Positions 2,515 to 3,198 of a stretch of 33,990 nt of DNA are shown here, one piece after another (positions within the stretch are counted from its first letter, which is position 1; the number at the start of each line of letters is the position of its first letter). This stretch comes from a virus. The stretch lies in UHGV virus genome UHGV-0171993. One strand, 5' to 3'. Below the pieces are notes generated by a model, which was given only the letters and a program-made list of their open reading frames with translations, did no database searches and was not told the DNA's origin. Both the position numbers and the translations under genes were made by a program.

Positions 2515-2694
2515 ATGAGCTACGCACTAAAAAAACACCCGCGATTGACTATTCCCCCTCGCGATAAAAGCGTTGTGGCAGCTCCGCGCCCGGCTATTGA
2601 TGAAAATTGCACACATCGTGAGCAGGTGAAAAATGCTTTCGATTTCGGTTTTTCTCGTTACGAGAAGGCAATGGAAGAACTTTCAAAAGTGTAA
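2515..2694 (+). CDS. Small protein (59 aa) immediately upstream of the Doc-family toxin; putative cognate antitoxin
   Basis: ORF ATG 2515 to TAA 2692-2694, ends 18 nt before the toxin start; below ORF-track cutoff; no resemblance to Phd that I can see. Confidence 0.4.
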   Translation: MSYALKKHPRLTIPPRDKSVVAAPRPAIDENCTHREQVKNAFDFGFSRYEKAMEELSKV

Positions 2695-2712
2695 TAATGG
2701 GTATTGTGCTCT

Positions 2713-3198
2713 ATGGCTGAGATTGTTGAAGGAGTGCACTATCTTTCGGTTGATGATCTTACTGAAATCAATCGCCTTTTAATTGAGCTTCAAACACCAG
2801 ATGAACCTGTAGGTGTGCTGAGTGTTGATAATTTAAGTTCTTCTCAGGCCCGTCCCAGCATAGTTCGATGGTATGAACAGATCAATGACATGTTTGTACT
2901 GGCATCGGTATTGATTGAAAGTCTGATTCAGAATCATCCGTTTGCTAATGCGAACAAACGAACAGCTATGATGGCTGGTTACGTCTTCTTGTTGTTGAAT
3001 GGCTATGAGTTAACAGCACCAGGCGATGAAATCGTGGAAATGGCAGAGGGACTGGCCTGCAAAACCTATACTCGAGAAGATCTCGAGAACTGGTTGTGTT
3101 ATTGGTCTCGTGCGTATGACAGCCGGGAATTATGTAAAACAGGCGCAACTATTGTTTTGTATGAAACTATCAAGCTTAAAATAGAACAGCAAAACTAA
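2713..3198 (+). CDS. Doc/Fic family protein (death-on-curing-like toxin)
   Basis: Fic/Doc active-site signature HPFANANKRTA (HxFx[DN][AG]NKR); true ATG at 2713 (track start 2704 is TTG). Confidence 0.7.
   Translation: MAEIVEGVHYLSVDDLTEINRLLIELQTPDEPVGVLSVDNLSSSQARPSIVRWYEQINDMFVLASVLIESLIQNHPFANANKRTAMMAGYVFLLLNGYELTAPGDEIVEMAEGLACKTYTREDLENWLCYWSRAYDSRELCKTGATIVLYETIKLKIEQQN

What the first reader, a model, noticed from the sequence alone, without database searches (positions are those of the whole stretch)
2515..3198. Doc/Fic-family toxin paired with a small upstream protein that is not Phd-like
The 161-aa protein carries the Fic/Doc catalytic motif HPFANANKRTA. The 59-aa ORF directly upstream (MSYALKKHPRLTIPPRDKSV...EKAMEELSKV) shows no resemblance to Phd that I can see, suggesting a non-canonical antitoxin or an inhibitory-helix-type partner. 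Prophage toxin-antitoxin pairs can act as abortive-infection defences.
Basis: partly seen in the sequence, partly recalled or inferred. Interest (0 to 1): 0.55.

Follow-up and report, generated by a model that had tools for sequence, protein, structure and literature searches.

The report
Minimal antitoxin for a prophage Doc toxin
A prophage carries a two-gene toxin-antitoxin cassette in which a Doc-type kinase toxin is paired with a 59-residue antitoxin that keeps only the toxin-binding tail of known Doc antitoxins and has no DNA-binding domain; this is an undescribed variant of a well-known system, not a new kind of system.

Summary
The 161-aa protein is a clear Doc toxin: TIGR01550 E=1.4e-36, with the motif HPFANANKR intact. 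The 59-aa ORF is a genuine gene. Synonymous sites are saturated while dN stays at 0.14-0.38. It lies directly upstream of this Doc subfamily in 29 of 29 genome loci, from Enterobacterales to Pseudomonas and Halomonas. It matches no Pfam, NCBIfam or PDB entry, only phrog_2208 (function unknown).

Its C-terminal 25 residues align end-to-end with the Doc-neutralising tail of AbrB-type "doc_partner" antitoxins (hhalign P=1e-4; 0 of 300 permutations reach the score). They also reproduce the spacing of the experimentally mapped Phd hot spots (F42, F46, Y49, M53, L56). AlphaFold gives one helix (residues 34-57) and an unstructured N-terminus that carries a conserved IPxRDK motif of unknown role.

The pair is an 842-bp insertion flanked by a duplicated terminator. 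The uninterrupted site occurs in 2693 of 5426 E. coli genomes and the cassette in 125.

Verdict: a type II Doc module with a "tail-only" antitoxin, a new variant of a known kind. Toxicity, neutralisation, regulation and any defence role are untested.

The parts
2373..2394 (+). Left copy of the 22-nt direct repeat AACCCGCTTCGGCGGGTTTTTT. It is the intrinsic terminator of the upstream hok gene and marks the left boundary of the inserted cassette.
   Evidence: the repeat finder found two 100% identical copies 842 nt apart. The uninterrupted junction, with a single copy, is contiguous in 2693 of 5426 E. coli genomes.
2395..2514 (+). Non-coding leader of the cassette. It holds the conserved box TGGTATTAG (2420-2428), the inverted repeat AGGCTA (2427-2432) / TAGCCT (2445-2450), and a Shine-Dalgarno-like AAGGG (2502-2506) 8 nt before the ATG. 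A promoter here is inferred, not shown.
   Evidence: The box is shared with the Salmonella, Izhakiella, Citrobacter, Kluyvera and Hafnia cassettes. In Salmonella and Izhakiella, TTGACC lies 17-18 nt upstream of TAGACT. The consensus scan found no sigma-70 site on the + strand in the window itself.
2515..2694 (+). Gene for the 59-aa antitoxin candidate (phrog_2208 family).
   Evidence: It lies directly upstream of the Doc gene in 29 of 29 loci of this Doc subfamily.
2542..2568 (+). Conserved N-terminal motif R10-L-x-I-P-x-R-D-K18, followed by V-A-x-P-(R/K)-(P/A)-A at residues 21-27. It sits in the segment predicted to be unstructured. Its function is unknown.
   Evidence: Among 49 family members, I13 is kept in 45, P14 in 47, R16 in 48 and D17 in 39. 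AlphaFold2 predicts residues 1-33 as coil with pLDDT 59-71. There is no similarity to the AbrB domain (hhalign P=0.3; 40% of permutations score as high).
2614..2685 (+). C-terminal amphipathic helix (residues 34-57), the predicted Doc-neutralising element (Phd-C-like). The hydrophobic face is F42, F46, Y49, M53 and L56.
   Evidence: AlphaFold2 predicts helix 34-57 with pLDDT 82-93. hhalign against doc_partner tails gives P=1.1e-4, and 0 of 300 permutations reach the score. L56 is kept in 49 of 49, A41 in 48, Y49 in 45, F46 in 38 and F42 in 37. The register matches the PhdSTm hot spots F56, M60, H63, L67 and L70 (PMC9207808).
2713..3198 (+). Gene for the 161-aa Doc-family toxin. It is in the same reading frame as the antitoxin gene, 18 nt after the antitoxin's first stop codon (tandem TAA TAA).
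   Evidence: RefSeq relatives are annotated as 'type II toxin-antitoxin system death-on-curing family toxin'.
2935..2967 (+). Doc catalytic motif H75-P-F-A-N-A-N-K-R-T-A85. It has the form HxFx(D/N)(A/G)NKR, the kinase-type variant of the Fic motif.
   Evidence: Read from the sequence. H75, F77, N79, N81, K82, R83 and T84 are invariant in 24 subfamily members. The motif definition is quoted in PMC13034048.
3212..3236 (+). Intrinsic terminator of the cassette. It contains the right copy of the 22-nt direct repeat (3215-3236) and marks the right boundary of the insertion.
   Evidence: The terminator scan found a 10-pair stem at 3212-3235 followed by a T tract.

Best explanation
Window 2395-3236 is a self-contained two-gene moron inserted at the hok terminator of a lambdoid prophage. 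It encodes a type II toxin-antitoxin pair of the Doc class.

The 161-aa toxin is a Doc-type Fic-fold kinase. By homology with P1 and Salmonella Doc, it should phosphorylate EF-Tu and stop translation (inferred).

The 59-aa protein is its cognate antitoxin. Its C-terminal amphipathic helix (residues about 38-59; face F42, F46, Y49, M53, L56) is the counterpart of the 'Phd-C' neutralisation tail of Phd, of AbrB-type doc_partner antitoxins and of PanA_Phd-C. It is predicted to fold on binding into the concave groove of Doc and hold it inactive (inferred from sequence homology and from solved relatives).

Unlike those antitoxins, it has no folded DNA-binding head. Residues 1-33 are predicted to be disordered but carry a strongly conserved basic, proline-rich motif (RLxIPxRDK...VAxPRPA) whose role is open. 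It could be a second contact with subfamily-specific parts of Doc, a protease degron, or an unconventional DNA contact.

The antitoxin therefore probably does not repress its own operon through a classical domain. Expression would then depend on the cassette's own leader or promoter and on phage read-through (inferred). The biological pay-off, whether prophage retention or abortive infection, is untested.
For: Toxin:
- TIGR01550 E=1.4e-36 and Pfam Fic E=5.8e-11.
- PDB Doc hits include EFDoc 9vzc_A at 1.6e-13.
- The catalytic motif is invariant in the subfamily.

Partnership:
- The small ORF lies directly upstream in 29 of 29 loci of the subfamily, across Enterobacterales, Orbaceae, Pseudomonas and Halomonas.
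- It is also upstream in Salmonella and Serratia prophages and in Pseudomonas phage Sirocco, in quite different neighbourhoods.
- No other neighbouring gene family is shared by more than 5 of 28 loci.

Coding: dS is saturated and dN is 0.14-0.38.

Tail homology:
- hhalign of 49 small proteins against 24 doc_partner antitoxins aligns the last 25 columns of both, P=1.1e-4. The score is 25.3, against a null of 9.9 +/- 2.2 (maximum 18.2) in 300 column permutations.
- The doc_partner profile hits EFPhd 9vzc_B at 7e-6. EFPhd residues 52-79 form the bent helix lying in the Doc groove (PMC13034048).
- The three most distant Doc loci carry AbrB-type antitoxins with the same tail pattern.
- Four of the six PhdSTm hot spots, including the gatekeepers F56 and L70, map in the same register, with the last one 3 residues from the C-terminus in both proteins, onto F42, F46, M53 and L56, which are hydrophobic in most of the 49 members (L56 in all); a fifth, H63, maps onto Y49, kept in 45 of 49 (PMC9207808).

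Architecture: AlphaFold2 gives a single helix 34-57 (pLDDT 82-93) and coil for residues 1-33. There is no domain hit in any library.

Precedent: a Phd-C element alone, fused to SUMO, neutralises a Doc toxin, and single-domain antitoxins are known (PMC10440598).

Moron status.
Against: - Nothing here shows toxicity, neutralisation or physical binding.
- The tail similarity rests on about 25 residues with hhalign probability of only 56%, and a profile search against PDB did not recover Phd or EFPhd directly.
- The Doc model alone was of low confidence (pLDDT 52.6), so the binding groove could not be inspected.
- In PMC10440598 an isolated Phd-C did not neutralise unless it was stabilised, so a 59-residue, largely disordered antitoxin may need its N-terminal segment for more than I can show.
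- Palindromes sit upstream of the gene in several lineages, which leaves room for DNA binding by the complex.
- No sigma-70 consensus promoter was found on the + strand in the window.
Confidence: 0.72

Rival explanations
1. The small protein is a complete canonical-type antitoxin after all. Its conserved N-terminal basic motif (RLxIPxRDK / PRPA) binds an operator in the cassette leader, perhaps as a beta-ribbon formed on dimerisation or only within the Doc complex. The operon would then be autoregulated like phd-doc.
For: - The N-terminal motif is as conserved as the tail (I13 in 45, P14 in 47, R16 in 48 of 49) and is basic.
- Inverted repeats lie between the putative promoter and the start codon in many lineages. 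In Providencia and Morganella they sit inside a TTGACT-N17-CATTAT promoter, with arm changes that keep the symmetry.
Against: - There is no similarity to AbrB, RHH or Phd/YefM domains (hhalign on the N-terminal halves P=0.3).
- AlphaFold2 predicts no secondary structure in residues 1-33.
- The palindromes differ completely between lineages while the protein motif is nearly invariant, which is not what a reading head and its operator should look like.
Confidence: 0.15
2. The N-terminal segment is the main functional novelty. It is a second Doc-binding element that reaches subfamily-specific parts of the toxin (the QTPxEP N-terminal segment, the 30-residue C-terminal extension, or the exposed catalytic motif), or it is a degron or trigger sensor that sets when the toxin is released. 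The tail only anchors the antitoxin. This extends the best explanation rather than excluding it.
For: - Doc proteins paired with the small antitoxin all share a QTPxEP segment and a conserved C-terminal extension (W131, R133, D136, L140, C141). These are absent from P1 Doc and from the AbrB-partnered Docs.
- In the EFPhd-EFDoc crystal structure the helix does not cover the catalytic motif (PMC13034048).
- An isolated Phd-C was insufficient in vivo without stabilisation (PMC10440598).
Against: The co-occurrence could simply reflect shared ancestry. There are too few paired sequences for a covariation analysis, and no complex model could be made.
Confidence: 0.3
3. The partner works like the class I Fic antitoxins (VbhA type). 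An inhibitory helix would insert a glutamate from an (S/T)xxxE(G/N) motif into the ATP site.
For: The partner is small and helical, and the toxin has a Fic fold.
Against: - The motif is absent from the window protein. It occurs in only 2 of 49 family members and at no conserved position.
- The toxin has the Doc kinase motif NKR, not the AMPylase motif GNGR.
- The tail aligns with Doc-partner tails instead.
Confidence: 0.03
4. The pair is not a working toxin-antitoxin module. Either Doc is an inactive or retargeted moron protein, or the small ORF is an unrelated hitch-hiking gene.
For: There are no experimental data for this subfamily. RefSeq calls the small gene 'hypothetical protein'.
Against: - The catalytic residues are invariant.
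- The two genes are strictly co-inherited across orders and across unrelated insertion sites.
- Both are under strong purifying selection.
Confidence: 0.05

Closest known systems
Phd-Doc of phage P1 and of Salmonella Typhimurium (PDB 3K33, 3DD7; PMC9207808)
   Same: - The gene order is antitoxin then toxin.
- The toxin has the Doc kinase motif HxFx(D/N)(A/G)NKR.
- The antitoxin ends in an amphipathic helix with the hot-spot spacing 0, +4, +7, +11, +14, and the last hot spot is 3 residues from the C-terminus. Compare F56, M60, H63, L67, L70 in PhdSTm with F42, F46, Y49, M53, L56 here.
   Different: - There is no Phd/YefM DNA-binding domain: no PF02604 hit and no PDB hit.
- The antitoxin is 59 aa rather than 73 aa, with a disordered, proline-rich N-terminus.
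- The toxin is only distantly related to P1 Doc (E=1.9e-5) and is 35 residues longer.
- The element is a moron in a lambdoid prophage, not a plasmid-prophage addiction module.
AbrB-type 'doc_partner' antitoxins (NCBIfam TIGR02609), including E. faecalis EFPhd-EFDoc (PDB 9VZC; PMC13034048)
   Same: - EFDoc is the closest solved toxin (1.6e-13).
- The C-terminal tails are significantly alike (hhalign P=1.1e-4; 0 of 300 permutations).
- The three most distant Doc relatives recovered by the same genome scan (L032-L034) carry this antitoxin type.
   Different: - The whole AbrB/SpoVT DNA-binding and dimerisation domain (about 50 residues) is missing.
- It is replaced by an unrelated 33-residue segment (N-terminal halves: P=0.3).
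- No TIGR02609 hit is reported, even at E<=1.
PanA_Phd-C : Doc of Corynebacterium doosanense and the 'linear neutralisation element' model (PMC10440598)
   Same: A portable Phd-C element does the neutralising whatever is attached to it. SUMO fused to Phd-C alone neutralises Doc. That paper also notes single-domain antitoxins made only of the neutralisation element.
   Different: Here nature supplies the Phd-C-like helix with no globular domain at all. Instead there is a short conserved disordered leader. This family was not found in the papers searched.
[quoted passage not shown]
   Same: The antitoxin is a pure neutraliser, so it cannot autoregulate by itself.
   Different: Those systems usually carry a third, regulator gene (omega, PaaR). 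Here no third gene is conserved next to the pair.
Class I Fic toxin-antitoxin pairs (VbhT-VbhA type)
   Same: A small helical partner of a Fic-fold enzyme.
   Different: There is no (S/T)xxxE(G/N) motif, and the toxin is a Doc-type kinase rather than an AMP-transferase.

Membership tests
Doc toxin family (NCBIfam TIGR01550 DOC_P1; Pfam PF02661 Fic/DOC) | The profile HMM score is above the curated cut-off. | tested here: met
   TIGR01550 scores 125.3 bits (cut-off 38.65, E=1.4e-36). PF02661 scores 43.5 bits (cut-off 24).
Doc toxin family | The Doc-specific catalytic motif HxFx(D/N)(A/G)NKR, as opposed to the Fic AMPylase motif HxFx(D/E)GNGRxxR. | tested here: met
   H75-P-F-A-N-A-N-K-R83 at nt 2935-2961. 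These residues are invariant in 24 subfamily members.
Doc toxin family | Fic fold with a concave groove that accepts the antitoxin helix. | tested here: inconclusive
   The AlphaFold2 model of Doc alone was all-helical but of low confidence (mean pLDDT 52.6), so no fold search was run. Sequence matches to solved Doc chains support the fold.
Doc toxin family | Kinase activity on EF-Tu, and growth arrest on expression. | not testable with these tools
   This needs a toxicity assay and detection of EF-Tu phosphothreonine.
Phd/YefM antitoxin family (Pfam PF02604) | N-terminal Phd/YefM DNA-binding and dimerisation domain. | tested here: not met
   No Pfam or NCBIfam hit at E<=1 for the window protein or for 49 family members. 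A profile search of PDB does not find Phd. Residues 1-33 are predicted to be coil.
Phd/YefM antitoxin family | C-terminal Doc-neutralising helix (Phd 52-73) with hot spots at 56, 59, 60, 63, 67 and 70. | tested here: inconclusive
   Four of the six hot spots fall on conserved hydrophobic residues and a fifth (H63) on the conserved Y49, in the same spacing and at the same distance from the C-terminus (PMC9207808). Direct sequence similarity to Phd itself is too weak to score. Statistical support comes through the doc_partner tails.
AbrB-type doc_partner antitoxins (NCBIfam TIGR02609) | AbrB/MazE/SpoVT swapped-hairpin domain (GNSxGVxLPKE...). | tested here: not met
   No TIGR02609 or PF04014 hit. 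hhalign on the N-terminal halves gives P=0.3, and 40% of permutations score as high.
AbrB-type doc_partner antitoxins (NCBIfam TIGR02609) | C-terminal tail that binds Doc (EFPhd 52-79). | tested here: met
   hhalign aligns the last 25 columns of both families, P=1.1e-4, probability 56%. 0 of 300 column permutations reach the score. The family includes 9vzc_B.
Type II toxin-antitoxin module | Adjacent, co-oriented, co-inherited small antitoxin gene upstream of the toxin gene. | tested here: met
   The gap is 18 nt in the window and the genes are on the same strand. The arrangement holds in 29 of 29 subfamily loci and in several unrelated insertion sites.
Type II toxin-antitoxin module | The antitoxin protein binds and neutralises the toxin and is proteolytically labile. 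| not testable with these tools
This needs co-expression, pull-down and stability assays.
Type II toxin-antitoxin module | Autoregulation through a DNA-binding domain of the antitoxin. This is usual but not obligatory. | tested here: not met
   No DNA-binding domain is detectable. Function at the DNA level itself was not tested.
Class I Fic antitoxins (VbhA-like) | Inhibitory helix motif (S/T)xxxE(G/N). | tested here: not met
   The motif is absent in the window protein and present in 2 of 49 family members, at no conserved position.
PHROG phrog_2208 (phage protein family of unknown function) | Full-length profile match. | tested here: met
   E=2.7e-42, residues 1-59 on profile positions 1-59 of 59. 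The toxin matches phrog_577, 'Doc-like toxin' (8.6e-50).
Catalogued anti-phage defence systems (PADLOC-DB 2.0) | A match to a defence-system protein model. | tested here: not met
   There is no hit for the small protein. The toxin has only marginal hits (PDC-S23 E=0.0018).

The most novel reading that the evidence does not exclude
The conserved, disordered N-terminal segment (RLxIPxRDK...VAxPRPA) is a new functional module that replaces the DNA-binding head of Doc antitoxins. It might be a trigger sensor or degron, or a second-site inhibitor that engages the subfamily-specific parts of Doc. The cassette would then be a non-autoregulated, phage-borne Doc switch acting in superinfection exclusion or abortive infection rather than in classical addiction.
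Probability: 0.25. Interest if true: 0.6.

Novelty: new variant of a known kind. Interest (0 to 1): 0.36.

Why it matters
It gives a natural example of a Doc antitoxin reduced to the neutralising tail. This fits the idea that type II antitoxins are assembled from a portable linear neutralisation element plus interchangeable heads (PMC10440598).

It also assigns a probable function to phrog_2208 and to the "hypothetical protein" annotated next to Doc. That pair occurs in about 2% of complete E. coli genomes, including O104:H4 and O121 strains, and in many Salmonella, Serratia, Providencia and Pseudomonas prophages.

It raises two concrete, testable questions. How is a Doc module controlled without an autorepressor? 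What does the invariant IPxRDK motif do?

A 22-residue natural tail against a distinct Doc subfamily could also serve as a template for the peptide Doc inhibitors under development (PMC9207808, PMC10728895).

Tried and rejected
1. Structure prediction of the complex. The read-through translation of 2515-3195 (both genes are in one frame) was rejected because of the two stop codons. No model of the interface was therefore possible.

2. AlphaFold2 of Doc alone with 24 close homologues gave pLDDT 52.6. I judged it too poor for a fold search and did not use it.

3. The idea that the N-terminal RLxIPxRD is a remnant of the AbrB 'vvIPkelR' strand. hhalign on the N-terminal halves gives P=0.3 and 40% of permutations score as high. 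Rejected.

4. A pseudo-substrate idea, comparing K18-S19-V-V-A with EF-Tu R-T382-V-G-A (the EF-Tu sequence is from memory). Position 19 is not conserved in the family; it is S, R, N, D, H, G, A, T or K. Rejected.

5. The Fic inhibitory motif (S/T)xxxE(G/N) is absent.

6. A search for a conserved third (regulator) gene by all-against-all BLAST of neighbours in 28 loci. Nothing is shared by more than 5 loci.

7. A search for a conserved operator. The upstream hairpins and palindromes exist but differ between lineages. Only the TGGTATTAG box is shared among Enterobacteriaceae. No conclusion on regulation.

8. Rfam scan of 1700-3700. It found only sok, upstream, plus sub-threshold hits on the terminators. 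There is no RNA antitoxin candidate inside the cassette.

9. Literature searches found no paper on this small-protein family or on this Doc subfamily.

10. Plasmid and phage collections. The small protein is found in only 3 of 50,697 phage records and in one 4-Mb record of the plasmid collection, chromosome-sized and so probably mislabelled. It is essentially a prophage-borne element.
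Full report
**1. The observation**

The window is a lambdoid prophage. Its gene order is HNH, DUF551, hok/sok, the pair in question, DUF968, RusA, Q, then lysis and lambda-like head and tail genes. The ORF list shows the 59-aa ORF at 2515-2694 and an ORF at 2704-3198. The ATG of the second ORF at 2713 gives the 161-aa protein. The motif HPFANANKRTA is residues 75-85 (nt 2935-2967). Both genes are on the + strand and in the same frame, separated by TAA TAA plus 15 nt.

**2. The toxin**

- The 161-aa protein scores 125 bits on NCBIfam TIGR01550 (DOC_P1, cut-off 38.65, E=1.4e-36) and passes Pfam Fic/DOC.
- Its closest solved relative is Enterococcus faecalis Doc (9vzc_A, 1.6e-13). 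P1 Doc is more distant (1.9e-5).
- The motif H-P-F-A-N-A-N-K-R is the Doc kinase variant HxFx(D/N)(A/G)NKR, not the AMPylase motif. It is invariant in 24 relatives.
- The protein belongs to a tight subfamily of at least 266 clusters at 90% identity, spread over Enterobacterales, Orbaceae, Pseudomonas and Halomonas.
- Compared with P1 Doc and with AbrB-partnered Docs, this subfamily has a QTPxEP segment where those have GGxxG. It also has a conserved C-terminal extension of about 30 residues, including W131, R133, D136, L140 and C141.

**3. The small ORF is a real gene and a faithful partner**

- It has homologues of 50-60 residues only: 17 clusters in the word-indexed search and about 37 representatives at E<=1e-3 among 1.84 billion proteins.
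- Against nine orthologues, 61-100% of synonymous sites differ (79-100% over the whole gene), while dN is 0.14-0.38. The C-terminal half is the more constrained.
- A Shine-Dalgarno-like sequence precedes the ATG in most loci shown.
- In a scan of one genome per species, 29 of 29 loci encoding this Doc subfamily have the small ORF ending 8-40 nt before the Doc gene. The three most distant Doc hits (Symploca, Sphingomonas, Mesorhizobium) instead have an AbrB/SpoVT-type antitoxin.
- The pair travels together into unrelated sites. It follows hok in E. coli lambdoid prophages with different downstream backbones. It sits among tail genes next to KilA-N, Bro-N or pRha genes in Salmonella and Serratia prophages. 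It lies at the att-proximal end of the P2-like Pseudomonas phage Sirocco.
- No third gene family is shared by more than 5 of 28 loci.

**4. What the small protein is**

It matches nothing in Pfam, NCBIfam, PADLOC or PDB, either alone or as a 49-sequence profile. The only match is PHROG phrog_2208, 'unknown function'.

The family alignment shows two conserved blocks:
- an N-terminal R-L-x-I-P-x-R-D-K ... V-A-x-P-R-P-A;
- a C-terminal H-x-x-Q-V-x-N-A-F-x-x-G-F-x-R-Y-E-K-A-M-E-E-L-S-K-V.

The AbrB-type antitoxins of the distant Doc loci end in F-x-x-Q-M-x-A-A-x-x-V-M-x-R-Y-x-x-A-L-x-x-L-A-E. These belong to NCBIfam TIGR02609, 'doc_partner'. Evidence that the two tails are related:

- Profile-profile comparison of 49 small proteins with 24 doc_partner proteins aligns the last 25 columns of both, end to end (P=1.1e-4, probability 56%).
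- The score of 25.3 was never reached in 300 column permutations (null 9.9 +/- 2.2, maximum 18.2).
- The doc_partner profile finds E. faecalis EFPhd (9vzc_B, 7e-6).
- In the 9VZC crystal structure, EFPhd residues 52-79 form a bent helix lying in the concave face of Doc (PMC13034048).

Independent support comes from the Salmonella Phd tail (MDDEFAAIMAVHGNELRELADK). Its experimentally mapped hot spots are F56, I59, M60, H63, L67 and L70, and F56 and L70 act as 'gatekeepers' required for inhibition (PMC9207808). Aligned from the C-terminus, F56, M60, L67 and L70 fall on F42, F46, M53 and L56 of the 59-aa protein, and H63 falls on Y49. The spacing is identical, and the last hot spot is three residues from the end in both proteins. 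These positions are the most conserved in the tail: L56 in 49 of 49, Y49 in 45, F46 in 38, F42 in 37, and M/L/F/I at position 53 in 47. The EFPhd tail (HQKKLQQMMEN-SKQKHNELYKELVT; PMC13034048) fits the same register, with M62, H69, Y73 and L76. This mapping is my own alignment and therefore an inference.

AlphaFold2 on the family alignment predicts one helix at residues 34-57 (pLDDT 82-93). It predicts no secondary structure in residues 1-33 (pLDDT 59-71).

**5. Mechanism proposed**

- Shown: a Doc-family toxin gene with an intact catalytic motif; a co-inherited, selected small gene upstream; a C-terminal helix related to known Doc-binding tails; and no recognisable DNA-binding domain.
- Inferred: Doc phosphorylates EF-Tu and stops translation. 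The C-terminal helix folds into the Doc groove and neutralises it. The antitoxin cannot act as a classical autorepressor.
- Open: the role of the invariant IPxRDK/PRPA segment. It may be a second contact with the subfamily-specific parts of Doc, a degron, or an unconventional DNA contact.

The concept has precedent. A Phd-C element attached to a Panacea domain, or merely to SUMO, neutralises a Doc toxin, and single-domain antitoxins exist (PMC10440598).

**6. The cassette as a moron**

- The same 22-nt terminator sequence (AACCCGCTTCGGCGGGTTTTTT) occurs at 2373-2394, after hok, and at 3215-3236, after doc.
- A synthetic junction with one copy and no cassette matches 2693 of 5426 complete E. 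coli genomes as one contiguous piece.
- The cassette itself is in 125 genomes, always chromosomal.
- The 120-nt leader holds a box, TGGTATTAG, shared with the Salmonella, Izhakiella, Citrobacter, Kluyvera and Hafnia cassettes. In the first two, a TTGACC lies 17-18 nt upstream of TAGACT. The consensus scan found no sigma-70 site on the + strand in the window.
- Inverted repeats follow the box but differ between lineages.

Regulation is therefore unresolved.

**7. Rivals**

- DNA binding by the N-terminal motif is not excluded, but several results count against it. There is no fold similarity and no predicted structure. The palindromes are also non-conserved while the peptide motif is nearly invariant.
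- The Fic-type inhibitory-helix mechanism fails its defining motif.
- A non-functional pair is unlikely given the conservation.

**8. Comparison with the known, and novelty**

At the toxin level this is a member of the Doc family. At the antitoxin level it fails the membership tests for Phd/YefM and for doc_partner, because the heads are missing. It shares the tail of doc_partner and works, most probably, like Phd-C.

I found no paper on this family. Databases call it 'hypothetical protein' or phrog_2208, 'unknown function'. I rate it a new variant of a known kind, of moderate interest.

The abortive-infection idea remains speculation. There is no convincing PADLOC match, although the prophage carries other defence cargo nearby.

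**9. Limits**

- There is no experimental evidence.
- The Doc model was poor.
- The tail homology rests on about 25 residues.

Noticed in passing
window 5381-6792 (- strand): A complete Kiwa anti-phage defence pair lies just downstream of the Q antiterminator gene. KwaB is at 5381-6265 (PADLOC PDLC00225 E=1.4e-149; Pfam KwaB 4.2e-7). KwaA is at 6271-6792 (PDLC00216 E=1.9e-83). The prophage thus carries a catalogued defence system about 2 kb from the Doc cassette.
   Followed up: partly
window 1978-2302: A hok/sok type I toxin-antitoxin locus lies immediately upstream of the Doc cassette. The Hok ORF is inside 2090-2302 (Pfam HOK_GEF 1.1e-22) and the sok RNA is at 1978-2152 (Rfam RF01794, 118 bits, above gathering). 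Two toxin-antitoxin modules of different types therefore sit back to back, and the hok-doc linkage is kept in E. coli prophages whose downstream backbones differ (L042).
   Followed up: partly
window 2373-2394 and 3215-3236: An identical 22-nt terminator sequence flanks the Doc cassette as a direct repeat. The sequence after each copy is also similar (ACGTACTGTGGTT versus ACGTATTCTGGTT). This suggests insertion or exchange by recombination at the terminator. The uninterrupted site is present in 2693 of 5426 E. coli genomes.
   Followed up: yes
window 2420-2450; L004/L007/L009 about 60-100 nt upstream of the small ORF: A conserved TGGTATTAG box is followed by lineage-specific inverted repeats. 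The window has AGGCTA..TAGCCT, Kluyvera has AATGGTC..GACCATT, and Citrobacter has ATAGCC..GGCTAT. Providencia and Morganella have TAATG(A/T)A.. palindromes inside a TTGACT-N17-CATTAT promoter, with arm changes that keep the symmetry. This could be an operator or a 5'-UTR hairpin. It is not resolved.
   Followed up: partly
window 7448-8494 (+): A type II-like DNA methyltransferase (Pfam N6_N4_Mtase 1.8e-44; PADLOC MTase_II 8e-152) lies between the Kiwa pair and the lysis genes, with no obvious restriction partner. It is probably an orphan phage methylase.
   Followed up: no
window 3586-4635 (+) and 3201-3584 (+): A DUF968 protein (9.4e-74) has a weak HNH-like C-terminal match (HNHc_6, 1.6e-4). 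It is preceded by an ORF with no family hit, which relatives annotate as a shorter hypothetical protein. Both are part of the common backbone into which the cassette is inserted.
   Followed up: no
L035-L040 (Salmonella and Serratia prophages): In these prophages the same antitoxin-Doc pair sits among tail genes. It is flanked by KilA-N, Bro-N or Phage_pRha (antirepressor-like) genes, another typical moron hotspot. The association with such genes holds in only about 5 of 28 loci.
   Followed up: partly
Doc subfamily alignment (A2): Docs paired with the small antitoxin share a QTPxEPxxVL segment in place of the GGxxGxxD of P1 Doc and of AbrB-partnered Docs. They also share a conserved C-terminal extension, W-x-R-x-(Y/F)-D-x-(R/K)-x-L-C. 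The function is unknown. These are candidate contact sites for the antitoxin's N-terminal motif.
   Followed up: no
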